This document shows, piece by piece, positions 2,714 through 19,193 of a stretch of 52,446 nt of DNA. The position numbers were made by a program, and so were the translations under genes. The notes beneath the pieces were generated by a model that saw only the letters and a program-made list of their open reading frames with translations, did no database searches and was not told the DNA's origin. Source of the stretch: a virus (Duplodnaviria; Caudoviricetes); IMG/VR virus record IMGVR_UViG_3300036792_000044, positions 1 through 52,446 of that record; one strand, 5' to 3'. Positions within the stretch are counted from its first letter, which is position 1; every line of letters starts with the position of its first letter.

Positions 2714-2944
2714 TCAGTCGATGGCGTCGGCTGGGAATCGGATTGGTAGTTCGTGTCCCCTGGCTCGGTCACGGTCCTGCGTCTCCCTCTCAAACCGTAG
2801 TGACTCAAGGTGATTCGCGTCCTCCATGGCCTGCGCGATGCGCTCGGCTGCTGTAGAGAACCGCATGAAAGATCGTGCTATACGTGATAGCGAAGTGGTT
2901 GCGTCGTTCGCAAACTTCAACGCTGCTGCTGCTTGCATACCCAT
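2714..2944 (-). CDS. hypothetical protein
   Basis: 76-aa ORF preceded by an AAGGAG Shine-Dalgarno. Confidence 0.65.
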   Translation of the reverse strand: MGMQAAAALKFANDATTSLSRIARSFMRFSTAAERIAQAMEDANHLESLRFERETQDRDRARGHELPIRFPADAID

Positions 2945-2965
2945 TGGTCGTCTCCTTAGTTGGTG

Positions 2966-3001
2966 AAACCCGTTGCCGCACTTGGGCTGAACGGCAACGG
3001 G
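2966..3001 (-). terminator. intergenic hairpin, possible intrinsic terminator
   Basis: 10-bp stem CCCGTTGCCG/CGGCAACGGG followed by TTT on the minus strand, just after the stop of 3011..3355. Confidence 0.45.
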
Positions 3002-3010
3002 TGGCTTGTG

Positions 3011-3952: not shown

Positions 3953-4221
3953 CTGACCTCCAAGGCCATGAGCCACGCGCTGATATACCGTAGGCACCAA
4001 CGCAAGCGCGGGTGGTCGTCGGCAATCATCTTGAGACTGATCCCCAAATCGTATGTGGCATGGTCGATTCCGTCCTTGATGAACTGCCACAGCACTGGCA
4101 CAATACCTAGTACCTCTTGCTCTAGCCCGTCGTCATTGAACCGAATCTCGTAGCTAGTCAACGCAAGTCGGTCTGTCAGGCGCAACGGCTTGACGAGAGT
4201 AAACCCGTCACACTTCATCAT
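3949..4221 (-). CDS. hypothetical protein
   Basis: 90-aa ORF within a tightly packed operon. Confidence 0.5.
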   Translation of the reverse strand: MMKCDGFTLVKPLRLTDRLALTSYEIRFNDDGLEQEVLGIVPVLWQFIKDGIDHATYDLGISLKMIADDHPRLRWCLRYISAWLMALEVR

Positions 4222-5673: not shown

Positions 5674-5857
5674 GACGTGAAAACCTCCACGGCACACTCG
5701 AATTGGGGTGCTAGTTCGTTGATGTGTTTTGCCGTCGCCTCGACCTTGTCGAAGTCTCTGCTACGGTAGTCGCTCACCGCCCGCCCAGGTGGCTTGTGCA
5801 GCCTCTCGGCCCAATAGGGTGGGCGGTTCCACGACAGTGCAAACGATGCAGCCATGA

Positions 5858-6148
5858 TCAGAAGTCAGGCTCGTCGCTAGCGGGATCGGGTGTCGCCTCG
5901 AACGGCGGCTCGGAGTCTGAGTCAGGTGACTCAGTTGTCTTGCCCCGCTTGCCCTTTGCCCGTGCCGTAGCGCTCGATGGTTCGTTGGGATTGATGGACA
6001 GGTTGACCTCGACCTGTCCGCTGCGCTTCCAATCCAGCAGTGCCGCAAGTACTTCCGGCTCGGTCACGATGTCGGCGTCGACGCTGCCGCACGCCTGTGC
6101 CAGCACGTTATGCAATGCGAACAGTTCGCGAATGTCCTCGATGTTCAT
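5858..6148 (-). CDS. hypothetical protein with acidic C-terminus
   Basis: AAGGAG SD before the ATG at 6148; ends in DEPDF. Confidence 0.6.
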   Translation of the reverse strand: MNIEDIRELFALHNVLAQACGSVDADIVTEPEVLAALLDWKRSGQVEVNLSINPNEPSSATARAKGKRGKTTESPDSDSEPPFEATPDPASDEPDF

Positions 6149-7616: not shown

Positions 7617-8158
7617 CAGGACACCACCAGTTTCGCACGGCGTGCCAATTGCGTTGCGCGCCACAGCCTGTGGCCCGGTATCTTCTCAACCAGACCCGCA
7701 GACTTGAGTGCCTGTATACGGGACGCGACGATAACCTGCGGGATGCCGAGCAACTGTGTAAGCCCGCTGGTACCAACACCTTCGGTGAACAGCATGATCG
7801 CTTCCAGTATCTCATTGTTCTTGCGCGACACTGGAATGTGTTGCGGTGCAACTGAGTCGGATGACTCAGTTAGTACCAGTGACAACACTGGCGCGTCCTC
7901 TTCCAGTTCTGCGAGCCGGTCGGCCGTCACACCGTACGGGTCGAGGTTCGGGCGAGGAACCATCGACGTGCCGTAATCCCCTACGGGATAAGACTTCTCG
8001 TCCGGTGGCCCGCCAACGCGCCACGATGGTGCTGGCGCGTTGACTGCCACGGGTAGGTGCAGACTGCCGACCGGAGTGTTGAGCACTGCGATGGCGATGC
8101 GCAACTCGGCCTCGGTATCGGCCGTAACCGAAACCCCGTCTTTCGCTACGGTATACAT
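7616..8158 (-). CDS. putative DNA-binding protein with C-terminal winged HTH
   Basis: GVGTSGLTQLLGIPQVIVASRIQALKSAGLVEK is wHTH-like. Confidence 0.6.
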   Translation of the reverse strand: MYTVAKDGVSVTADTEAELRIAIAVLNTPVGSLHLPVAVNAPAPSWRVGGPPDEKSYPVGDYGTSMVPRPNLDPYGVTADRLAELEEDAPVLSLVLTESSDSVAPQHIPVSRKNNEILEAIMLFTEGVGTSGLTQLLGIPQVIVASRIQALKSAGLVEKIPGHRLWRATQLARRAKLVVS

Positions 8159-9744: not shown

Positions 9745-9914
9745 GATGCTTTGTCTCCTGTTTGGTCGTCTGCGTGTGACGGTACGCGCAGGGTCCGACA
9801 AAGCAAGCGCTTTGAACCCGGCGATCCCAAAGGTGTGGGTACACCTAGTGATTCAGCCGGTACCGTAGCTGCGCTCAGATGCCCATTGCTGCCGCTCAGA
9901 TCGATTCTGGGCAC

Positions 9915-9948
9915 AAAAAAACCCCGACAGGACGAATCCTGCCGGGGT
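9915..9948 (-). terminator. rho-independent terminator closing the ribozyme operon
   Basis: Minus strand CCCCGGCAGGA-TTCG-TCCTGTCGGGG followed by T7. Confidence 0.85.
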
Positions 9949-9967
9949 CAATTTGTGTTCGTCTCCC

Positions 9968-10150
9968 TTAGCGCTTACGCGCCTGCATTCCGTTGGCTAC
10001 CGTAGGTTTCCGTGGTCTGCTGTAGACCGTGAGCCACATACGAACCAGGTTCGATATGTTCGTGCCGTCGCGCTTCGCTTGCGCTGTCGCACTGTCCCAC
10101 AGTTCATCATCGATGCGAATGTTTCGCGTCTTAGTTCCCTTGCCGGGCAT
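9968..10150 (-). CDS. ribbon-helix-helix (Arc/CopG-like) DNA-binding protein
   Basis: TRNIRIDDELWDSATAQAKRDGTNISNLVRMWL fits the RHH pattern; AAGGA SD. Confidence 0.75.
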   Translation of the reverse strand: MPGKGTKTRNIRIDDELWDSATAQAKRDGTNISNLVRMWLTVYSRPRKPTVANGMQARKR

Positions 10151-10183: not shown

Positions 10184-10534
10184 TTACACTTTCATGTTCG
10201 GCGTGGACAGCCATGCGTCGAGTGCGGGCATGTTGGACGGGCACAGGTCGTACACCGCTTCAACGATGATGACCGCCGCGTCGTGCGCCGTGACACCAGA
10301 GCTAAGCGCCGCTGCCGCTTCGGTATTGATGCCCGCCGTACCGTTGGCGCTGGCGTCCGAGCACACTTGATGCCCTACTGCCAGCGTAATCGGCGCGGTG
10401 TAAACACCATGCGCCGCAACGTCATTGATGAACGACGCCTCGTCGGCCTTCGCCGTCTGAGCGAAGCTCATAGCGACCGCCGTGGCAGCGCCCGCGATTG
10501 CGCAGACAATGCCAGACCTCTTGTAGTTCTTCAT
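10184..10534 (-). CDS. DUF732-like secreted mycobacterial protein
   Basis: Signal peptide ending AKA-D; F...GHQVC...AVYDLCP motif. Confidence 0.7.
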   Translation of the reverse strand: MKNYKRSGIVCAIAGAATAVAMSFAQTAKADEASFINDVAAHGVYTAPITLAVGHQVCSDASANGTAGINTEAAAALSSGVTAHDAAVIIVEAVYDLCPSNMPALDAWLSTPNMKV

Positions 10535-10611
10535 GTTTCGTCTCCAATCTGTTGTGTTTCGGACTGAGTTGTCCAGCGGCTCAGCCTCTTACGAGGCTGG
10601 CCTAGTACTAC

Positions 10612-10824
10612 TCAGTGCGTTCTCTTGTGCGCCTTGAGCCACGCGCCGAAGTCAATCAGCGTGTGCCCCTTGGCTTTCGCGTGTTCCACGTCCCCGGCAT
10701 ATGCGCCGGTTAGTTCCTCGAATGCCTGCTCCTGCCGCCATCGTTCGATACGGTAGGACGCGACGAGGTCGGCGTGAGCCGGTGAGCAAGACCTGTGGCG
10801 CGTACTGCATGGCGTGAAAGTCAT
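10612..10824 (-). CDS. hypothetical protein (ribozyme cassette gene)
   Basis: ATG at 10824 after the shared GATTGGAGAC SD leader. Confidence 0.7.
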   Translation of the reverse strand: MTFTPCSTRHRSCSPAHADLVASYRIERWRQEQAFEELTGAYAGDVEHAKAKGHTLIDFGAWLKAHKRTH

Positions 10825-10846
10825 TGCTGTCTCCAATCGTTGGCTT

Positions 10847-10908
10847 GTCTCTTCAGTGGGGAGGGAACCACCCTAACCCAGACCCGCTGCACCGCAGCGG
10901 GTTTCGAC
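10847..10908 (-). ncRNA. type II hammerhead ribozyme HH-1
   Basis: GUC-GAAA-CCCGCUGC(GGU)GCAGCGGG-UC^-stem I-CUGAAGA-GAC; predicted cut between 10881 and 10880. Confidence 0.9.
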
Positions 10909-10912
10909 TATC

Positions 10913-11251
10913 TCAGTGTGTCGACCATGTCTGGCCTCCGTCGTGTGAGTGCACGCCACGGGCCAGCGCTGCACGGTCAACGGCCTTACCCGCCAACATT
11001 TCTTGGCGTTGCAGGTTCATCTTGGCAGCAGCGCTACCAGACCGTGTGATGGTCCGGTAGATGCACGCGTCGGAGATACCGTCGCGGTCGCTGTCGGACA
11101 GCCCGAGGAACGTAACCGCTCCCTGTGGGCCAACTTTCAGCTTCAACCGGCCGCTTGAAATGAGCTTGTCAATCTGGCTCATTCGCTTGCGTACCTCTTC
11201 CTTGCGCTGCGCGAGCGTTTGGCGAGGCTTCAGCATTGTGTCGCATACCAT
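10913..11251 (-). CDS. hypothetical protein of the AAA-ATPase module
   Basis: 112 aa; MVCDT...VGPQGA...DACIYR...HSHDGG motifs; shared SD leader. Confidence 0.8.
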   Translation of the reverse strand: MVCDTMLKPRQTLAQRKEEVRKRMSQIDKLISSGRLKLKVGPQGAVTFLGLSDSDRDGISDACIYRTITRSGSAAAKMNLQRQEMLAGKAVDRAALARGVHSHDGGQTWSTH

Positions 11252-11272
11252 TTTGTCTCCAATCGTTGTGGC

Positions 11273-11333
11273 AGTCTCTTCAGTGAGGGAATGCCAATCC
11301 CTCAGACCTGGTGCTAGGCACCAGGTTTCGACT
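11273..11333 (-). ncRNA. type II hammerhead ribozyme HH-2
   Basis: AGUC-GAAA-CCUGGUGC(CUA)GCACCAGG-UC^-UGAGGGA(UUGGCAU)UCCCUCA-CUGAAGA-GACU; cut between 11305 and 11304. Confidence 0.93.
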
Positions 11334-12070
11334 TATCCGGCGAGGTCTATGTTCCTGCCGTTCTTCGGTCGCACGTACTCGACACCGCCGCTATTCTCGA
11401 TGTCGAGGAACTGCACGCGTGCCATCTTCAGACGCGTAAGCGCTTGCCGGTCAACCTCTTTCGCAGCAGCTTGACCAACCTGGCTCATCTTGTCTGCCAC
11501 CTGGCGAGACGCCTTAATGGCTGCTTGCAACCTCGGCGTTGCCTCCGGTGACAGCACCTTGCCGACCTGCGTTAGCTTGTTCGCGTTGTCTCGAATCATC
11601 TTGGGGTCCAACGCTTTAACGCCTGCCTGCATACCGTCCACCAACTGGCGTACCTCGCTGGCGATGGCACGAACCGTCTCCACGTCATCCTGAGCTATGC
11701 GACCAGTGATGACGTAGAACGAGATTCGCGTTGTCCGCGCCGTGGCGTTGAACTCGTCGGCAAGCCTGCGGGCCTCTTCGACGGCCTCTCGCAAATCTTC
11801 CTCTTTGTTGTTGGGGCAGATAAGCGAGTTGCTGAAAGCTGTTGCTACGCAATGCTTCAGGATTAGGCCACGAATCTTGGTCCGCTGCTTGATGGCTGCC
11901 TCTTGCTCGTCAACGTCGTTGACTTGCTTGCGAGTGTGAATGTCGGTTACCTCGGTACGGTCCATCCGCACCACGTCTCGGTCGATGTCGTGGTACGACA
12001 CATTGCCCTTAACGCTGGTGAACATCGACACCAACAGGCCAGGGCGCAGGGTGTGAAATTCCATTGTCAT
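11333..12070 (-). CDS. helical hypothetical protein, possibly DUF3150-like partner of the AAA ATPase
   Basis: ATG at 12070 after the shared SD; helical/coiled-coil composition. The family assignment is from recollection only. Confidence 0.7.
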   Translation of the reverse strand: MTMEFHTLRPGLLVSMFTSVKGNVSYHDIDRDVVRMDRTEVTDIHTRKQVNDVDEQEAAIKQRTKIRGLILKHCVATAFSNSLICPNNKEEDLREAVEEARRLADEFNATARTTRISFYVITGRIAQDDVETVRAIASEVRQLVDGMQAGVKALDPKMIRDNANKLTQVGKVLSPEATPRLQAAIKASRQVADKMSQVGQAAAKEVDRQALTRLKMARVQFLDIENSGGVEYVRPKNGRNIDLAG

Positions 12071-12093
12071 GTTTGTCTCCAATCGGTTTGGCT

Positions 12094-12157
12094 TGTCTCT
12101 TCAGTGAGCAGGGAGCCACCCTAACTCAGACCCGCTGCTAGGCAGCGGGTTTCGACA
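12094..12157 (-). ncRNA. type II hammerhead ribozyme HH-3
   Basis: UGUC-GAAA-CCCGCUGC(CUA)GCAGCGGG-UC^-stem I-CUGAAGA-GACA; cut between 12129 and 12128. Confidence 0.92.
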
Positions 12158-13735
12158 TCACACCAGATCAAGCTGGCGTCCGCGCTTGCGCGCCGTGCTG
12201 GTGTCCGCTGCGGCAGCGCTGGTCGCCGGGCGAGCACGCCCGAGCCAGAACTCCCGCAGACGTTCGATCTTCTCGAACGCTGACTTCGCCAGTGGCACAA
12301 CCGTTTTCGCTGCTTCGAGCAGGTCGTCGGTTGTGACCTCACGTGCGCCATCGTTGAACGCCGCGAACATTGCATCCGGTACCAGAGCAGCTAGCTCAGC
12401 GCCGGTAAACAAGTCCGTTGCTTCGCTGATAGCTGCCAGGTTGACATCTGCACTGCTCCGACCGTGCGCCTTCAGCGCGGCCGTCGTAATGCTGGCACGC
12501 TCGCCAGGTGTAGGCAGGTCAACCCACCACACCTCGTCAAAACGTCCCTTGCGCAACAACTCTGGCGGTAGCTTCTCGGCATTGTTGGCGGTCGCGATAA
12601 CGAACGCCTCACCTTGCCGGTCTTGCATCCACGAGAGGATGGCACCGAGCGCATCCGCACTCACGCCACCGTCGGCCGAACCCGAAGTTGCACCCTCAAG
12701 CGCCTTTTCGATTTCGTCCAACCAGACAACGCAGCGGCCGATAGCCTCGATGACGCCTAATGCCTTGCGCAAGTTGCCCTCTGACTCACCAACGTACTTG
12801 GACTTGAGCGCACCCAGGTCCAAGCGCAGCAGCGGAACGCCCCATGCCGTAGCAATTGCCTTGGCAGTCAACGACTTTCCGCAACCGGGAACGCCGACGA
12901 GCAGCGCACCCTTGGGAGCTGGCAGACCGTACTCTCTGGCAGCCGGTGAGTACGCGCTCGCACGCGACACCAACCATGCCTTCAGATTGTCAAGTCCGCC
13001 AACGGCTTCCAGCCCGCCCGGTATCGGGTCGAACCATTCGATGACACCCTCACGCGCAACCACTCGTTTCTTTTCGGCGGCGACGAGCGCGGAGTCAATC
13101 TTGAAAGCCTGCACCAGCGACCGGGCAAAGGTGGCTTGCGCCTCTTCGCCCGAAAGGCCAACCGCCGCATCGATTGCGGAGTCACGAGAACCGTTGGACA
13201 ACTTCTCAATTCGAGGGTCGTCTTGGTACGGCTCCATGGTGTCGTCCAGTAGCTCTGCAATTTCCTCGCGGTCGGGCAGAGGCCACTCGATAACCGTTGT
13301 GTGGTTGGCTAATTCGGCCGGTACATCTTTTGTTGGTGAGATCACGATGATGGCTTGCGCGTCATCTTGGTCCTTGGCGGGAAGCTGGCGAGCCAGATTC
13401 CTCAAGCGCCGCAAGGGCATTGCGCCCTGCGGGCCGGTGAGCCACACGGGTAAGTCCCGCATGATCCACACGCCACGCTCGCCGGACTTCTCCCCGATAG
13501 CTGTGAAAGCTGCGTCGGGGTCACCCTCGGCATTACCGTAGGTGTTCAACGGCTTTCCAGCCATTGTGGTGAATCCTGCTGCGATGTCCCATGTTTGAGC
13601 AAGGTAACCTGCATTGGCAGCCGCTTGGAAGAGGTACTGTTCTACACGTGCCTCTTCGCGAGTCACTACCCACAGCAACGGGTTACGTGCGCGGAGTAGT
13701 GCAGCGATGTCCAGGGTTACATCTTGTGATTTCAT
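12158..13735 (-). CDS. AAA+ ATPase (Ycf46-like architecture)
   Basis: Walker A GVPGCGKS, Walker B VVWLDEIEK, SRH ATAN...PPELLRKGRFDE; degenerate N-terminal AAA domain. The likely start is the ATG at 13735. Confidence 0.9.
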   Translation of the reverse strand: MKSQDVTLDIAALLRARNPLLWVVTREEARVEQYLFQAAANAGYLAQTWDIAAGFTTMAGKPLNTYGNAEGDPDAAFTAIGEKSGERGVWIMRDLPVWLTGPQGAMPLRRLRNLARQLPAKDQDDAQAIIVISPTKDVPAELANHTTVIEWPLPDREEIAELLDDTMEPYQDDPRIEKLSNGSRDSAIDAAVGLSGEEAQATFARSLVQAFKIDSALVAAEKKRVVAREGVIEWFDPIPGGLEAVGGLDNLKAWLVSRASAYSPAAREYGLPAPKGALLVGVPGCGKSLTAKAIATAWGVPLLRLDLGALKSKYVGESEGNLRKALGVIEAIGRCVVWLDEIEKALEGATSGSADGGVSADALGAILSWMQDRQGEAFVIATANNAEKLPPELLRKGRFDEVWWVDLPTPGERASITTAALKAHGRSSADVNLAAISEATDLFTGAELAALVPDAMFAAFNDGAREVTTDDLLEAAKTVVPLAKSAFEKIERLREFWLGRARPATSAAAADTSTARKRGRQLDLV

Positions 13736-13758
13736 TTTGTCTCCAATCGGTTTGGCTT

Positions 13759-13820
13759 GTCTCTTCAGTGGGGAGGGAGCCACCCTCGCCCAGACCCGCT
13801 GGCTCGCAGCGGGTTTCGAC
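13759..13820 (-). ncRNA. type II hammerhead ribozyme HH-4
   Basis: GUC-GAAA-CCCGCUG(CGAGC)CAGCGGG-UC^-stem I-CUGAAGA-GAC; cut between 13793 and 13792. Confidence 0.92.
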
Positions 13821-14239
13821 TAGCAGTCGCAGCACTCGACGGGCGTAATCGGCATGATCGCCGAGCCGATGTCGATGTGTGCTGTCTTGGGGAATTCCTC
13901 GTAAAACGATTCTTTCCCAAGGTATTTCGCGTATGCGGTGCGAACCTTGGCGTCGGGGTTGATATTGAATACCTCGATCAACACGTCTCGGTAGACGTGC
14001 CAGCACACCGCAGCGACCCTACGCTCGCCGCTCCATTTAATGGAGCGTTTCTGCCCTGGCGCTAACTCTTCGACGGGTAATCCCATACCGTAGCCAGTGA
14101 CCTTGAGCTTCACCGTTGCGCGAAAGCGCTTGGGAGAGTAGGTGGTTCCGAAGTCTGCCCGTAGGTTGTCCGCGTACAGTGCGCCAGCTTTCGCGACGGC
14201 CTGCTCGAATTCCCCTGTGGTGATTCCGGTTATCTGCAT
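13820..14239 (-). CDS. hypothetical protein (ribozyme cassette gene)
   Basis: 139 aa; CWH motif and C-terminal ECCDC; shared SD leader. Confidence 0.8.
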   Translation of the reverse strand: MQITGITTGEFEQAVAKAGALYADNLRADFGTTYSPKRFRATVKLKVTGYGMGLPVEELAPGQKRSIKWSGERRVAAVCWHVYRDVLIEVFNINPDAKVRTAYAKYLGKESFYEEFPKTAHIDIGSAIMPITPVECCDC

Positions 14240-14260
14240 GTTGTCTCCAATCGTTGTGGC

Positions 14261-14321
14261 AGTCTCTTCAGTGAGGGAATGCCAATCCCTCAGACCCGCT
14301 GTCTCGCAGCGGGTTTCGACT
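14261..14321 (-). ncRNA. type II hammerhead ribozyme HH-5
   Basis: AGUC-GAAA-CCCGCUG(CGAGA)CAGCGGG-UC^-UGAGGGA(UUGGCAU)UCCCUCA-CUGAAGA-GACU; cut between 14293 and 14292. Confidence 0.93.
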
Positions 14322-14545
14322 TAAAACATGTGAACGGTTACCACGTATTCGTTCTCACCCTTGGCACCGCGCAAGCGCAGCGCACGAATGAGACCGTGGT
14401 CCATACCATCGAATTCGTCATCGTAGACAACAGCGCTCGCGGTGTTGATTGCCCGCGTGCAGAAGTTGTTTGCTTCCATCTCCGACGCGACACTCTTGGT
14501 CTTGGTCTGGTAGGTGGTCTGCGACTGCATCGTGATCTGGTACAT
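14321..14545 (-). CDS. hypothetical protein (first ribozyme cassette gene)
   Basis: 74 aa; shared SD leader. Confidence 0.75.
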   Translation of the reverse strand: MYQITMQSQTTYQTKTKSVASEMEANNFCTRAINTASAVVYDDEFDGMDHGLIRALRLRGAKGENEYVVTVHMF

Positions 14546-14569
14546 ATTGTCTCCAATCTGAAATGGCTT

Positions 14570-14630
14570 ATCTCGTCAGTGATTTGGGAGCCACCCAAAC
14601 CAGACCCGCTGCTAGGCAACGGGTTTCGAT
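14570..14630 (-). ncRNA. type II hammerhead ribozyme HH-6
   Basis: AUC-GAAA-CCCGUUGC(CUA)GCAGCGGG-UC^-UGGUUUGGG(UGGCU)CCCAAAUCA-CUGACGA-GAU; cut between 14603 and 14602; compensatory AUC/GAU stem II. Confidence 0.9.
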
Positions 14631-15027
14631 TGAAGGAGACGGGCTTCGCCTGCGTCTTGATCTTGCACTACCTGTCGTCTATGAAGCGATCGGCGCATTA
14701 CCCTTGCTTGTGGCGCAGGCGCTACCCGGGACTTCCCGGTCTTACACAGTGAGCAACGACAGTTACTCTAGATCATGGAGCATTTTGAAACCTTATGTGG
14801 GACATCACCTTTCGAGACGTGAAAGGCGTCGACCTTACTGCTAGGTCGAACGGCGGGTGCGTGCAGCGACTGTCGAAGTTCTCGCGCATTCGGTTGCGGC
14901 ACTGCGTCTTACGTATGTCCTGGTGCGTTATAGGAATCCCTTGATTGGGGCTGGCTGCCATCCGCTCGTGTTCGTCGGCTCGTGCGCTCGTAACGTCTTA
15001 TCCAGTTGTCCACCGCGCTAGCGGCTT
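14631..15027 (-). ncRNA. putative structured leader RNA of about 400 nt
   Basis: No convincing ORF; several hairpins; lies between the promoter and HH-6. Confidence 0.45.
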
Positions 15028-15033
15028 GCCGCT

Positions 15034-15062
15034 AGCTTATTCACATGTCCCCACATTGTCAA
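15034..15062 (-). promoter_or_regulatory. SigA/sigma70-type promoter of the early operon
   Basis: TTGACA (15062-15057), 17-nt spacer, TAAGCT (15039-15034). Confidence 0.8.
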
Positions 15063-17980: not shown

Positions 17981-18274
17981 ATGACGACCAACAATGTTGT
18001 TTCCGAGCTAGGCGAGAAGTGGTGGCCTCTGCCGCCCGAAAAATTCTTCACAGCCCAGCGTGCGCCAGACATGTGGTTTGGAGACGAACTGCCACCGACC
18101 TTGCAGGCCGAATTGGCGAGTCCCCTTGTGACACAATCGAAGTTGATGGTGCAAATGGGCATCATGCAGAACCTTGCCCTCGGCGAACGCAAGAGAGTCA
18201 TGCAGGAAGAGACGCAACGATTCGTCTCGGCCCGCTCCCGAGTTGGCAAGCGGGCCAAGACAAAACGACACTGA
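17981..18274 (+). CDS. hypothetical protein; the only credible plus-strand gene, probably leaderless
   Basis: Fills the gap between two minus-strand genes; TGG-TACACT extended -10 ends 7 nt before the ATG. Confidence 0.55.
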   Translation: MTTNNVVSELGEKWWPLPPEKFFTAQRAPDMWFGDELPPTLQAELASPLVTQSKLMVQMGIMQNLALGERKRVMQEETQRFVSARSRVGKRAKTKRH

Positions 18275-18284
18275 GTCATGTGAC

Positions 18285-19193
18285 TCAGTTGGCCTTTCCG
18301 AACACCTTGTTCTTGAGCGCGGCGAGCGCATCGACCAGAGTTAGGTTCTGGCCCTTGTCATTCTGGCCTAGCTGCGGCCACGGGTTCGCGACCTGATCAC
18401 GCACGTCTCCGAGTGCGTCGACCACCGTCTTACCGCCAAGCTGAGGCCAGCCGGTAGCCTGGTCGGGCTTGGAAGCGTCTGTGGGACCGAGCAATTGGTC
18501 GCTGATCAGTCGGACACGCTTGAGTAGTTCGTCTTGTTCTGCGTCGTTGAGTGCCATGAAATTTCCTCCTGGTATTCCTGCGATGTGCAGAGCCGATGCT
18601 AGCTCTGCCTTACTGCCTCGAAATGCGTTGGCGTCCATGTTCATTCCGGCGATGTGCGCGGCGTCGGTGAACTGCAAGATGTCAACGTTCTTACCGCCGA
18701 ACCCTGCCCACATGCGAGAGTCGTCGCCGGGATACATGGCGGAAGCTGCACCGCCAGAACCACTTACGTAACTCGACTGAATGAGCAGACCCGGTATGTT
18801 GCTGATGTCTGGCGAGCCGATCTGCTGCCAGTACCAGTGCGGAATATAGCTCAGGACAACCTCGATACCGCGCCGATTGAACGCCTGCACGCAAGCCCAA
18901 AAGTTGTTGATATTCCCAGAATTCGCCTCGAAGTCGAACATGACTTTGTCGCCGCCGCCGTTGTTGGCGAAACACGCTGCCTGCGCGTCGGCGTTGTCGG
19001 TCTTGACGTAGTGGTACCCGACGCAGATCAGTCCGCGCCGAGCGCACGCGTCACGCGTAGCGGCCCAATACCCGTCCCGAAAGCCTGATCCCTCAGACAC
19101 TTTCGCGAACACGAAGTCGAATCCTTCGTCGGCAACACGGTCGATGTCGACCCGCCCGTTGTTGTTGGATATGTCTGGTCCGAAGATTGTCAT
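18285..19193 (-). CDS. endolysin (lysin A), GH25 muramidase with C-terminal cell-wall-binding repeats
   Basis: GPDISNNNG, AKVSEG, GYHY, DFE, LQFTD and DAN motifs; two WPQLG...VDAL repeats. Confidence 0.88.
   Translation of the reverse strand: MTIFGPDISNNNGRVDIDRVADEGFDFVFAKVSEGSGFRDGYWAATRDACARRGLICVGYHYVKTDNADAQAACFANNGGGDKVMFDFEANSGNINNFWACVQAFNRRGIEVVLSYIPHWYWQQIGSPDISNIPGLLIQSSYVSGSGGAASAMYPGDDSRMWAGFGGKNVDILQFTDAAHIAGMNMDANAFRGSKAELASALHIAGIPGGNFMALNDAEQDELLKRVRLISDQLLGPTDASKPDQATGWPQLGGKTVVDALGDVRDQVANPWPQLGQNDKGQNLTLVDALAALKNKVFGKAN

What the first reader, a model, noticed from the sequence alone, without database searches (positions are those of the whole stretch)
10847..14630. Early operon punctuated by six type II hammerhead ribozymes, one before each gene
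Seen: six similar ~60-nt intergenic elements at 10847-10908, 11273-11333, 12094-12157, 13759-13820, 14261-14321 and 14570-14630. On the coding (minus) strand each reads stem II 5' strand, GAAA, stem III, GUC cleavage triplet, stem I, CUGA(A/C)GA, stem II 3' strand. Established knowledge: this is the hammerhead catalytic core in the type II permutation (stem II open). Stem sequences differ between copies but stay paired: stem III is CCUGGUGC/GCACCAGG versus CCCGCUGC/GCAGCGGG, and stem II is GUC/GAC versus AUC/GAU. This points to selection on RNA structure. Inference: the polycistronic transcript cuts itself into units of about 310, 500, 1664, 824 and 424 nt, plus a 3' unit, without any protein. 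This would be a ribozyme analogue of T7 early-mRNA processing by RNase III. Isolated phage hammerheads are known. I do not know of a described case with one at every junction of a phage operon, but I cannot search the literature.
Basis: partly seen in the sequence, partly recalled or inferred. Interest (0 to 1): 0.97.

Follow-up and report, generated by a model that had tools for sequence, protein, structure and literature searches.

The report
Six-hammerhead ribozyme array in phage operon
An uncultured soil phage related to mycobacteriophage Corndog carries six well-formed self-cutting hammerhead RNAs in front of six consecutive genes, a further example of the clustered phage hammerheads first described in 2011; sister phages carry a conserved hairpin at the same gene junctions instead.

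Summary
Exactly six type II hammerheads lie on the minus strand at the stated coordinates (pattern: 6 found, 0.02 expected; own covariance model: six hits of 79-97 bits and no other hammerhead). All six keep the full catalytic core, three stems and a 5-bp loop I/3'-tail pseudoknot.

The reading as self-processing of one transcript is plausible but untested; no RNA run was listed. Three claims need correcting:
- Six of eight operon genes are preceded by a ribozyme, not every gene.
- "Early" is unverified.
- The arrangement is not new. Perreault et al. 2011 (PMC3088659) described hammerheads flanking single genes in prophages and cleaved tandem arrays in vitro.

Other IMG/VR contigs carry 7-8 copies. 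Cultured Streptomyces phage Celia carries about ten, all unannotated. This scan has already reported arrays of 7-15 on other DNA.

What is new here: only 3 of 37 relatives with the same ATPase gene block have any hammerhead nearby. In the three closest sisters the same junctions hold a conserved bulged hairpin with the same ribosome-binding leader.

Verdict: new member of a known kind.

The parts
15034..15062 (-). Putative sigma-A-type promoter: TTGACA (15062-15057), 17-nt spacer, TAAGCT (15039-15034)
   Evidence: Read by eye. The same TTGACA-N17-TAGGCT stands in the sister L069, in a leader that otherwise does not align. The consensus scan did not call it (0 promoter-like sites).
14631..15027 (-). 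Non-coding leader of about 400 nt that the first hammerhead would cut off. It ends in GUCUCC (14640-14635), which is complementary to the GGAGAC of the first gene's ribosome-binding site.
   Evidence: Sequence. Its only ORF (62 aa, 14961-14773) has no tblastn match in any other fetched locus, L069 included; it matches only the window's own copies L001 and L002. Conservation with L069 begins exactly at GTCTCCTTCAATCG. The MFE pairs GUCUCC with GGAGAC in both phages.
14564..14630 (-). HH1: type II hammerhead with pseudoknot tail. It cuts between 14603 and 14602 and precedes gene A.
   Evidence: (78.8 bits). Rfam RF02276 gives 29.6 bits, E 1.2e-5. The MFE gives stems I and III but not the AUC/GAU stem II.
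14321..14545 (-). Gene A, 74 aa, no family match
   Evidence: no Pfam or PHROG hit. Absent from the sister loci.
14257..14321 (-). HH2: type II hammerhead with pseudoknot tail (UGGCA/UGCCA). It cuts between 14293 and 14292 and precedes gene B.
   Evidence: (79.9 bits). Rfam RF02276 gives 34.4 bits against a gathering score of 37.
13820..14239 (-). Gene B, 139 aa, no family match
   Evidence: Absent from the sister loci.
13753..13820 (-). HH3: type II hammerhead with pseudoknot tail. It cuts between 13793 and 13792 and precedes gene C. The upstream stop codon UAG shares its G with stem II.
   Evidence: (94.8 bits). Rfam gives 30.7 bits.
12158..13735 (-). Gene C, AAA+ ATPase, 525 aa
   Evidence: Pfam AAA 5e-29 and phrog_8638 1e-176. 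51% identical to Corndog gp96.
12089..12157 (-). HH4: type II hammerhead with pseudoknot tail. It cuts between 12129 and 12128 and precedes gene D.
   Evidence: (96.6 bits). No Rfam score was obtained.
11333..12070 (-). Gene D, 245 aa, phrog_11021 (function unknown)
   Evidence: Syntenic with Corndog gp95.
11269..11333 (-). HH5: type II hammerhead with pseudoknot tail (UGGCA/UGCCA). It cuts between 11305 and 11304 and precedes gene E.
   Evidence: (78.9 bits). Rfam did not report it, probably a filter effect, because the near-identical HH2 scores 34.4 bits.
10913..11251 (-). Gene E, 112 aa, phrog_11784 (function unknown)
10841..10908 (-). HH6: type II hammerhead with pseudoknot tail (UGGUU/AGCCA, one wobble). 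It cuts between 10881 and 10880 and precedes gene F.
   Evidence: (95.1 bits). Rfam gives 25.7 bits.
10612..10824 (-). Gene F, 70 aa, phrog_7933, with a weak match to an HTH DNA-binding family
10561..10616 (-). Seventh-junction element ("hp2"): a bulged hairpin of about 22 bp. Its base helix is (A)CUGAGU/ACUCAG(U) and contains the stop codon of gene F. It is followed by the same GAUUGGAGAC leader.
   Evidence: Sequence; MFE; no Rfam match. There are 14 copies at junctions of this phage and three sisters. Covariation is shown.
10184..10534 (-). Gene G, 116 aa, DUF732, signal-peptide-like N terminus
   Evidence: Pfam DUF732 2.7e-7.
9968..10150 (-). Gene H, 60 aa, weak ribbon-helix-helix (CopG-like) match below the cut-off
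   Evidence: 18.1 bits against a cut-off of 28.
9913..9949 (-). Intrinsic terminator closing the operon: 13-bp stem followed by a run of seven U

Best explanation
The six elements are functional type II hammerhead ribozymes of the pseudoknot-stabilised kind.

Inferred course of events:
1. One transcript runs from a host-type promoter near 15062-15034 to the terminator at 9949-9920.
2. As it is made, each ribozyme folds (stems I and III as hairpins, a 3-4 bp open stem II, and loop I pairing with the tail 3' of stem II) and cuts after C17.
3. This releases a leader of about 425 nt, five single-gene RNAs of 310, 500, 1664, 824 and 424 nt (genes A to E), and a 3' unit of about 965 nt (genes F, G and H).

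Each released message starts with a 5'-hydroxyl, the stem I hairpin and a 53-58 nt leader that carries the shared GAUUGGAGAC ribosome-binding site. Each ends, 0-4 nt after its stop codon, in the G+C-rich stem III hairpin with a 2',3'-cyclic phosphate. The likely benefit is that the stability and translation of each gene become independent of its neighbours and of the long leader.

Shown: sequence, fold, covariation in the family, position between stop and start codons, and comparison with relatives.
Inferred: transcription as one unit, cleavage in the cell, and any effect on stability or translation.
For: Core and fold
- All 11 conserved core nucleotides, A15.1-U16.1 and C17 are intact in 6 of 6 copies.
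- The MFE reproduces the three-way junction in 5 of 6 copies.
- The only core difference between copies is at the free position N7.

Similarity to Rfam Hammerhead_II
- The four copies scored give full-length alignments (1-66 of 66) at 34.4, 30.7, 29.6 and 25.7 bits, with E from 4.5e-6 to 5e-3.
- A sister copy in L069 scores 45.1 bits, above the gathering score of 37.

Covariation in the family
- 129 sequences (113 distinct) were aligned with model R1.
- 96.7% of cells pair, and 17 of 18 pairs show changes on both sides. No shuffle out of 500 reaches these values. Slid controls pair in 29-55% of cells.

Pseudoknot
- Pairing of 5 bp or more is found in 45% of 106 distinct sequences, against 11% (maximum 19%) when loops and tails are re-partnered.
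- It is 5 bp in all six window copies: one search lists five, and HH4 was read by eye.

Orthologue test
- Between the window and L069 the leader does not align.
- The stretch from GUCUCC through HH1 to the ATG is about 92% identical. It carries a compensatory U-A to C-G change at pair 1.1-2.1, and its only core change is at N7.

Position
- 103 of 129 family members lie within 30 nt of an upstream stop and 40 nt of a downstream start, against 68 of 640 random positions.

Precedent
- Perreault et al. 2011 found 14 of 18 consensus hammerheads active, and all members of three tandem arrays cleaved (PMC3088659; passages read).
- Three type II hammerheads near phage genes were shown to cleave in Desulfovibrio cells (PMC8782182; passages read).
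Against: - No cleavage or expression data exist. The only listed sequencing run is a DNA soil metagenome that may be the source of this record.
- None of the four copies scored reaches Rfam's gathering score of 37, and two copies have no score.
- Stem II is only 3-4 bp. In HH1 the MFE prefers other pairings.
- In longer contexts the strand GUCG (AAUC in HH1) that forms stem II can instead pair with the CGAUU of the ribosome-binding leader. This would compete with the active fold.
- The six copies are 67-89% identical. They are recent duplicates, so compensatory changes within the window are few and are not independent.
- The family alignment was seeded by a pattern that fixed the core flanks and was fitted to the model's structure. 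Its pair counts therefore lean towards the structure.
- The promoter was read by eye, and the scan tool did not call it.
- 34 of 37 relatives run the same gene block without any hammerhead, so the ribozymes are dispensable for these genes.
Confidence: 0.8

Rival explanations
1. The ribozymes are active, but their main significance is as mobile or duplicative "stop - ribozyme - ribosome-binding leader" cassettes. These spread within and between phage genomes and act as recombination seams for gaining and losing genes. Any effect on expression is secondary.
For: - The cassettes are 67-89% identical over about 89 columns, while the 10 nt upstream are 10-50% identical.
- Genes A and B, each with its own cassette, lie between HH1 and gene C in the window. 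They are absent from L069, where the HH1 orthologue directly precedes gene C.
- A near-identical hammerhead (90 bits) lies in L077 among genes with no similarity to genes A-H at E 1e-5.
- Only 3 of 37 relatives have any hammerhead, and L285 has a different hammerhead subtype at the same C-D and D-E junctions.
Against: - The core is intact in all six copies, and the HH1 orthologue is conserved amid an unalignable leader. Both argue for selection on catalysis, not mere carriage.
- No transposase, target-site duplication or other mobility signature was seen.
- This reading does not exclude the processing role.
Confidence: 0.3
2. The excised units circularise. Each unit carries the 3' half of one hammerhead at its 5' end and the 5' half of the next at its 3' end. 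Five of six copies share the same GUC/GAC stem II. The ends could therefore reassemble a ribozyme and be joined by the reverse reaction, or by a host RtcB-type ligase, giving circular mRNAs.
For: - The geometry follows from the parse, and the 5'-OH and cyclic-phosphate ends are the right chemistry.
- Perreault et al. 2011 raised this possibility for clustered hammerheads (passage read).
- Another note on this genome proposes it (e1-6289480).
Against: - Perreault et al. looked for spliced or circular products and did not detect them.
- A 3-bp stem II is a weak clamp.
- Nothing in the sequence specifically favours ligation.
- No RNA data exist.
Confidence: 0.05
3. The elements are repeats that act without catalysis, for example as stabiliser or terminator hairpins or as protein-binding sites. 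Their likeness to the hammerhead core would then be incidental, or the ribozymes are dead.
For: - All Rfam scores are below the gathering score.
- Sister phages use plain hairpins at the same junctions.
- 4 of 18 consensus hammerheads tested by Perreault et al. were inactive.
Against: - The pattern is expected 0.02 times and found 6 times.
- Every core position is kept in all six copies, while stems and loops vary with compensation.
- The pseudoknot needed for fast cleavage is kept, with a U-A to A-U swap.
- The family shows strong covariation.
Confidence: 0.04

Closest known systems
Type II hammerhead ribozyme with a loop I/3'-tail pseudoknot (Rfam RF02276; Perreault et al. 2011, PMC3088659)
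   Same: - Same core and same permutation (stem II open).
- Same short stem II.
- Same pseudoknot between loop I and the nucleotides just 3' of stem II.
- The Rfam consensus loop (UGG) and tail (AGCCaAA) are matched nearly letter for letter (alignments).
   Different: - Scores are 25.7-34.4 bits, below the curated 37.
- Stem III is longer (8-9 bp) than in the Rfam consensus.
- Stem I carries an internal loop in three copies.
Clustered hammerheads flanking single genes in prophages (Clostridium scindens, Azorhizobium caulinodans and Agrobacterium tumefaciens arrays; Perreault et al. 2011)
   Same: Several co-oriented hammerheads sit in one phage transcription unit, each between a stop and a start codon. 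The proposed role is cutting long transcripts into single-gene or operon-length mRNAs.
   Different: - Here there are six in a row. The one tested array whose size the text I read gives, that of A. tumefaciens, is a triple; the sizes of the other two tested tandem arrangements are not given there. I could not see Figure 3 or the supplements.
- Every copy is fused to one shared ribosome-binding leader.
- The host lineage is a Corndog-like actinobacteriophage.
- Arrays of 7-8 in other IMG/VR contigs and of about 10 in Streptomyces phage Celia show that six is not exceptional.
RNase III processing of phage T7 early mRNA
   Same: A polycistronic phage transcript is cut at structured intercistronic sites into single-gene mRNAs that keep a hairpin at the 3' end.
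   Different: No host enzyme is needed, and the ends are 5'-OH and 2',3'-cyclic phosphate. This is an analogy of function, not membership.
Cluster O mycobacteriophage intergenic palindrome TGTTCGG-N3-CCGAACA (seen in the Corndog sequence; its description in print is recalled, not read here)
   Same: A conserved hairpin sits just upstream of the ribosome-binding sites of the orthologous genes (before gp96, between gp96 and gp95, and between gp92 and gp91).
   Different: It is a plain 7-bp hairpin with no ribozyme core. Corndog has no hammerhead in the 10.7 kb examined.

Membership tests
Hammerhead ribozyme, type II (Rfam RF02276) | Conserved catalytic core: C3-U4-G5-A6-N7-G8-A9, G12-A13-A14, the A15.1-U16.1 pair and a non-G nucleotide 17 at the cleavage site | tested here: met
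   6 of 6 copies: CUGA(A/C)GA, GAAA, U then C17.
Hammerhead ribozyme, type II (Rfam RF02276) | Three helices around the core, with stems I and III closed by loops and stem II open | tested here: met
   The parse shows this in 6 of 6 copies. The MFE gives the three-way junction in 5 of 6; in HH1 the MFE lacks the 3-bp AUC/GAU stem II.
Hammerhead ribozyme, type II (Rfam RF02276) | Helices supported by compensatory changes | tested here: met
   Family alignment A4: 96.7% of cells pair and 17 of 18 pairs show changes on both sides, against 29-55% paired in slid controls. Within the window there are changes on both sides in stem II (one pair), stem III (two pairs), stem I and the pseudoknot. Caveat: the alignment was fitted to the model and seeded by a core pattern.
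Hammerhead ribozyme, type II (Rfam RF02276) | Pseudoknot of four or more pairs between loop I and the nucleotides just 3' of stem II (majority feature of type II; Perreault et al. 2011) | tested here: met
   5 bp in 6 of 6 copies. One search lists five; HH4 was read by eye because the script took the wrong loop. In the family, 45% have 5 bp or more, against 11% with re-partnered tails.
Hammerhead ribozyme, type II (Rfam RF02276) | Score at or above Rfam's gathering threshold (37 bits) | tested here: not met
   HH2 34.4, HH3 30.7, HH1 29.6 and HH6 25.7 bits. HH4 and HH5 were not scored. There were 0 hits at the gathering score over the whole window. A sister copy in L069 scores 45.1 bits.
Hammerhead ribozyme, type II (Rfam RF02276) | Mg2+-dependent self-cleavage giving 5'-OH and 2',3'-cyclic phosphate ends | not testable with these tools
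   No RNA run was listed for this DNA.
Clustered phage/prophage hammerheads (Perreault et al. 2011) | Several co-oriented hammerheads in phage DNA that flank individual genes or short gene blocks | tested here: met
   Six copies on one strand within 3.8 kb, each 0-4 nt after a stop codon and 53-58 nt (from the cut) before the next ATG. The record is a complete phage genome with terminase, portal, capsid, tape measure and endolysin.
RNase III-processed phage early operon (T7 type) | Intercistronic double-stranded hairpins of about 20 bp cut by host RNase III | tested here: not met
   The six junctions hold ribozymes, not long duplexes. Only the seventh junction (10616-10561) has a bulged hairpin of about 22 bp, and its cleavage is unknown.

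The most novel reading that the evidence does not exclude
In this small phage lineage the self-cleaving hammerhead and a conserved bulged hairpin of about 55 nt (hp2; base helix CUGAGU/ACUCAG enclosing the upstream stop codon) are interchangeable intercistronic modules attached to the same ribosome-binding leader.

Across four sister genomes, 28 leader-bearing junctions hold 9 hammerheads, 14 hp2 elements and 5 others. Substitutions run in both directions at orthologous junctions.

If both elements do the same job, the lineage records a ribozyme replacing a nuclease-dependent processing site, or the reverse. Alternatively hp2 is itself an undescribed self-cleaving or protein-recognised RNA. 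Either way this would give a natural handle on what phage hammerheads are for.
Probability: 0.3. Interest if true: 0.6.

Novelty: new member of a known kind. Interest (0 to 1): 0.38.

Why it matters
The biological role of bacterial and phage hammerheads is still called elusive. The 2019 review PMC6765202 (passages read) mentions processing of polycistronic transcripts only as a suggestion.

This array adds no new principle, but it contributes three useful things:
- A compact and very regular case: a complete 52-kb genome and one operon with a defined promoter and terminator.
- A natural comparison set. The same genes are preceded by a hammerhead in one phage and by a hairpin in its sisters, so equivalence of function can be tested.
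- A pointer to a cultured relative of the motif. Streptomyces phage Celia (NC_054655.1) has about ten unannotated hammerheads, and end-mapping during infection is feasible there.

It also shows that curated Rfam thresholds miss all six copies, so such arrays are probably under-annotated in phage genomes.

Tried and rejected
- Rfam at gathering thresholds over the whole window gave 0 hits. Permissive searches were needed, and their speed filters dropped copies unpredictably. One search found only HH1, only HH1 and HH3, and one search found HH6 but not HH5.
- My first fixed-spacing pattern found nothing because the spacing was wrong.
- No RNA holder was listed for the region. The one run is a DNA soil metagenome that may be the source.
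- Corndog, the closest cultured relative of the gene block, has no hammerhead in 10.7 kb.
- The weak R1 hit at 2941-3007 is a plain hairpin.
- I asked whether the seventh-junction element is a known ribozyme or a half-hammerhead. It has no Rfam match at E up to 10 and no CUGANGA at the right place (read by eye).
- ARAGORN finds no tRNA in the window, L069 or L077.
- The IMG/VR scan for the ribosome-binding leader returned mostly single chance matches and was wasted.
- An exact scan for the hp2 motif found only 4 contigs. One of them (L135) looks coincidental.
- Literature searches for a description of hammerheads in actinobacteriophages found nothing relevant: hammerhead + mycobacteriophage gave 4 papers, none on the subject; hammerhead + Streptomyces phage gave 2, which only cite aminoglycoside binding; hammerhead ribozyme + actinobacteriophage gave 0. 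Other searches surfaced nothing beyond Perreault 2011 and the reviews.
- Supplements were closed. I could not see Perreault's Figure 3, Figures S1-S3 or Dataset S1, so I cannot say how large their largest cluster is or whether relatives of these copies are in their alignments.
- The pseudoknot script took loops from MFE folds and mis-parsed some (HH4 and L069:1421), so its 45% is an underestimate.

Full report
**What the window is.** The window is a complete IMG/VR virus record of 52,446 bp with direct terminal repeats.
- Nearly all long ORFs lie on the minus strand.
- They include a DNA polymerase/primase, large terminase, portal, major head protein, tape measure, minor tail protein, endolysin and an exonuclease.
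- The AAA+ ATPase inside the finding is 51% identical to gp96 of cluster O mycobacteriophages such as Corndog. The next two genes are syntenic with Corndog gp95 and gp93.
- A DUF732 protein follows.
- The only sequencing run that holds the DNA is a soil metagenome.
- The host is therefore probably an actinobacterium of the Mycobacteriales. This is an inference.

**The observation.** A gapped core pattern finds six matches where 0.02 are expected, all at the reported sites. A regex parse gives, for every copy:
- a 3-bp stem II (GUC/GAC five times, AUC/GAU once; a fourth pair is possible in three copies);
- GAAA, then a 19-nt stem III hairpin, then U-C17;
- a 21-24 nt stem I hairpin;
- CUGA(A/C)GA, then the 3' strand of stem II.

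Folding each element alone gives the three-way junction in 5 of 6 copies, with z-scores from -1.7 to -4.1. HH1 folds stems I and III but not its weak AUC/GAU stem II.

A covariance model built from the six (R1) and run over the whole genome without filters returns the six at 78.8-96.6 bits and no seventh hammerhead. The weak hit at 2941-3007 is a plain hairpin.

**A feature the finding omits.** Five nucleotides of loop I pair with the tail just 3' of stem II: UGGCU/AGCCA in HH1, HH3 and HH4; UGGUU/AGCCA in HH6; UGGCA/UGCCA in HH2 and HH5. The last form differs from the first by a U-A to A-U swap. This is the pseudoknot that Perreault et al. 2011 found in most type II hammerheads and showed to be needed for fast cleavage (PMC3088659; passages read).

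**Relation to Rfam.**
- Hammerhead_II aligns full length to the four copies for which I obtained a score: 34.4, 30.7, 29.6 and 25.7 bits.
- All are below the gathering score of 37, and the whole-window search at gathering thresholds is blank.
- HH4 and HH5 were not scored. The filters dropped copies erratically.
- The Rfam consensus loop and tail are matched almost letter for letter. A sister copy in the closest relative scores 45.1 bits.
- I therefore treat the shortfall as a matter of stem lengths and internal loops, not of kind. The threshold criterion is nevertheless formally unmet.

**The wider family.**
- R1 found 135 hits at E up to 0.001 in the 80 loci handed to it. 77 loci had at least one hit, 31 had two or more, and three had seven or eight at spacings of 250-900 nt.
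- On 129 aligned sequences (113 distinct; window copies included; E up to 1e-4), 96.7% of cells pair and 17 of 18 pairs show changes on both sides. No shuffle out of 500 reaches these values, and slid controls pair in 29-55% of cells. The caveat is that the set was seeded by a core pattern and aligned to the model.
- 103 of the 129 sit within 30 nt of an upstream stop and 40 nt of a downstream start, against 68 of 640 random positions.
- So the "stop - hammerhead - ribosome-binding site" grammar is general and not peculiar to this phage.
- Cultured Streptomyces phages Celia, Urza, Itza and Hank144 match the element by blastn in unannotated DNA. In Celia, R1 finds eight copies in 5.3 kb, in or at the edges of the intergenic gaps. 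A whole-record search adds two more.

**The operon.**
- Upstream, a terminator-like hairpin with a U run (15238-15184, read by eye) closes the preceding genes.
- TTGACA-N17-TAAGCT follows at 15062-15034. The same arrangement stands in the sister L069. The scan tool did not call it.
- A leader of about 400 nt precedes HH1.
- The order is then: HH1, gene A; HH2, gene B; HH3, gene C (ATPase); HH4, gene D; HH5, gene E; HH6, gene F; a different element before gene G (DUF732); and gene H (weak CopG-like match) after a 33-nt spacer.
- A strong terminator stands at 9949-9920.
- So six of eight genes carry a ribozyme.
- All seven structured junctions share the leader GAUUGGAGAC followed by 3-5 nt and AUG: seven exact minus-strand copies.

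**Comparison with relatives.**
- Of 37 IMG/VR loci that encode the ATPase at 50% identity or more, with up to 4 kb on each side where the contig allows, only three hold any hammerhead at E up to 0.001. These are L256 (the L069 contig) with two, L281 with one and L285 with two.
- L285 has a different hammerhead subtype at the same C-D and D-E junctions.
- The three closest sisters (L256, L281, L292) share the window's leader. In the four genomes, 28 leader-bearing junctions hold 9 hammerheads, 14 copies of a bulged hairpin ("hp2") and 5 other sequences.

| Junction | Window | L256 | L281 | L292 |
|---|---|---|---|---|
| Before gene C | hammerhead | hammerhead | hp2 | hp2 |
| Before gene D | hammerhead | hp2 | hp2 | hp2 |
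| Before gene E | hammerhead | hp2 | hp2 | hp2 |
| Before gene G | hp2 | hammerhead | hp2 | hp2 |

- More distant relatives have assorted hairpins or nothing at the C-D junction. Corndog has its own palindrome there.
- The leader hammerhead (HH1) is the one shared by three of the four sisters. Between the window and L069 the leader does not align, but from GUCUCC through the ribozyme to the ATG identity is about 92%. There is a compensatory change at pair 1.1-2.1, and the only core change is at N7.
- Genes A and B, each with its cassette, are absent from the sisters.
- The six cassettes are 67-89% identical to each other and fall into two subtypes.
- Together this indicates recent expansion of the hammerhead cassette in the window's lineage, at least partly at the expense of hp2.

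**The hairpin element (hp2).**
- The window's copy (10616-10561) folds into an interrupted stem of about 22 bp. Its base helix CUGAGU/ACUCAG contains the stop codon of gene F.
- On eight copies, an inner hairpin and a small GNNC/GNNC hairpin are supported: the latter is 100% paired, with changes on both sides in 3 of 4 pairs. The long-range base helix is 7 pairs, mostly invariant, with one pair that covaries.
- These two pairings overlap, and eight related sequences cannot decide between them.
- No Rfam family matches.
- The arms of its base helix are also the arms of an 18-bp palindrome, CTGAGTC-N4-GACTCAG. That palindrome occurs 11 times in the genome against 0.07 expected. At 18271-18288 it spans a stop codon and the next start codon.
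- What cuts or binds hp2 is unknown.

**How it most likely works.**
- Shown: six intact type II hammerheads, co-oriented, each between a stop and a start codon.
- Inferred: co-transcriptional cleavage into a leader, five single-gene RNAs and a three-gene 3' unit. Each message starts with 5'-OH and the stem I hairpin, and ends in the stem III hairpin with a cyclic phosphate. This should uncouple the decay and translation of neighbouring genes.
- Two observations remain open. The GUCUCC just 5' of HH1, conserved in three sisters, is complementary to the first gene's GGAGAC and is predicted to pair with it. In longer folds the stem II 5' strand can pair with the CGAUU of the leader instead of its ribozyme partner. 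Either could link cleavage to translation, or compete with folding. I cannot tell which.

**Comparison with what is known, and verdict.**
- Perreault et al. 2011 already report clustered hammerheads flanking single genes in prophages. They propose this processing role, report cleavage of three tandem arrays, and considered but did not detect circular or spliced products.
- A 2019 review still calls the function elusive.
- Earlier reports of this scan describe arrays of 7 to 15 on other DNA and name the same closest known case.
- The finding is therefore a genuine, tidy and medium-sized new member of a known kind.
- Its added value is the comparison with sisters that carry a hairpin at the same junctions, and the pointer to a cultured phage where the question can be tested.

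Noticed in passing
window 10616-10561 (minus); L256/L069, L281, L292/L136 junctions: A conserved bulged hairpin of about 55 nt ("hp2"). Its base helix CUGAGU/ACUCAG includes the upstream stop codon, and it has a variable but paired inner hairpin and the same GAUUGGAGAC leader. It occupies 14 of 28 leader-bearing junctions in four sister phages, including the junctions where the window has HH3, HH4 and HH5. It has no Rfam match. It may be a nuclease processing site or an undescribed RNA motif.
   Followed up: partly
window 2700, 5917, 7852, 9494, 16280, 18271, 28317, 37726, 44374, 46454, 48469 (start positions): An 18-bp palindrome, CTGAGTC-N4-GACTCAG, occurs 11 times against 0.07 expected. Its arms equal the base helix of the hp2 element. 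At 18271-18288 it spans the stop of the endolysin gene and the start of the next ORF, so it may be a minimal junction hairpin.
   Followed up: partly
window 14640-14635 (minus) and 14554-14549: GUCUCC lies six nucleotides 5' of HH1 and is complementary to the GGAGAC ribosome-binding site of gene A. The block GUCUCCUUCAAUCG is conserved in L069 and L281, although the rest of the leader does not align between the window and L069. MFE folds pair the two. It may be a cleavage-linked translational switch, or an extension that clamps the weak stem II.
   Followed up: partly
NC_054655.1 (Streptomyces phage Celia) 42626-49022, minus strand; locus L255: A cultured phage with a deposited genome carries about ten type II hammerheads, in or at the edges of the gaps between its small right-arm genes. 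None is annotated, and one (L255 4032-4101) overlaps the annotated start of gene 71. Phages Urza, Itza and Hank144 match too.
   Followed up: partly
L077 5290-5170 and 6200-6120 (minus): In this contig, which also has three or four hammerheads close to the window's, two other gene junctions carry elements with a tRNA T-arm-like motif (GGUUCGAAUCC) inside a closed stem. ARAGORN calls no tRNA. They may be tRNA-like processing signals.
   Followed up: no
L077 5667-5595 and 4806-4734 (minus): Two hammerheads have U15.1-A16.1 in place of the near-universal A15.1-U16.1 (GAAU ... AC at the cut site). These are the only 2 of 113 distinct sequences with this swap.
   Followed up: no
L285 1345-1411 and 2231-2305: A 91-kb relative with the same ATPase gene block has hammerheads of a different, G+C-rich subtype at the same C-D and D-E junctions. 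This suggests independent gain at the same places.
   Followed up: partly
L005 (Corndog AY129335.1) 4055-4075, 5855-5875, 7852-7870: The palindrome TGTTCGG-N3-CCGAACA stands just upstream of the ribosome-binding sites of gp96, gp95 and gp91. This is a third kind of junction hairpin in the wider group.
   Followed up: no
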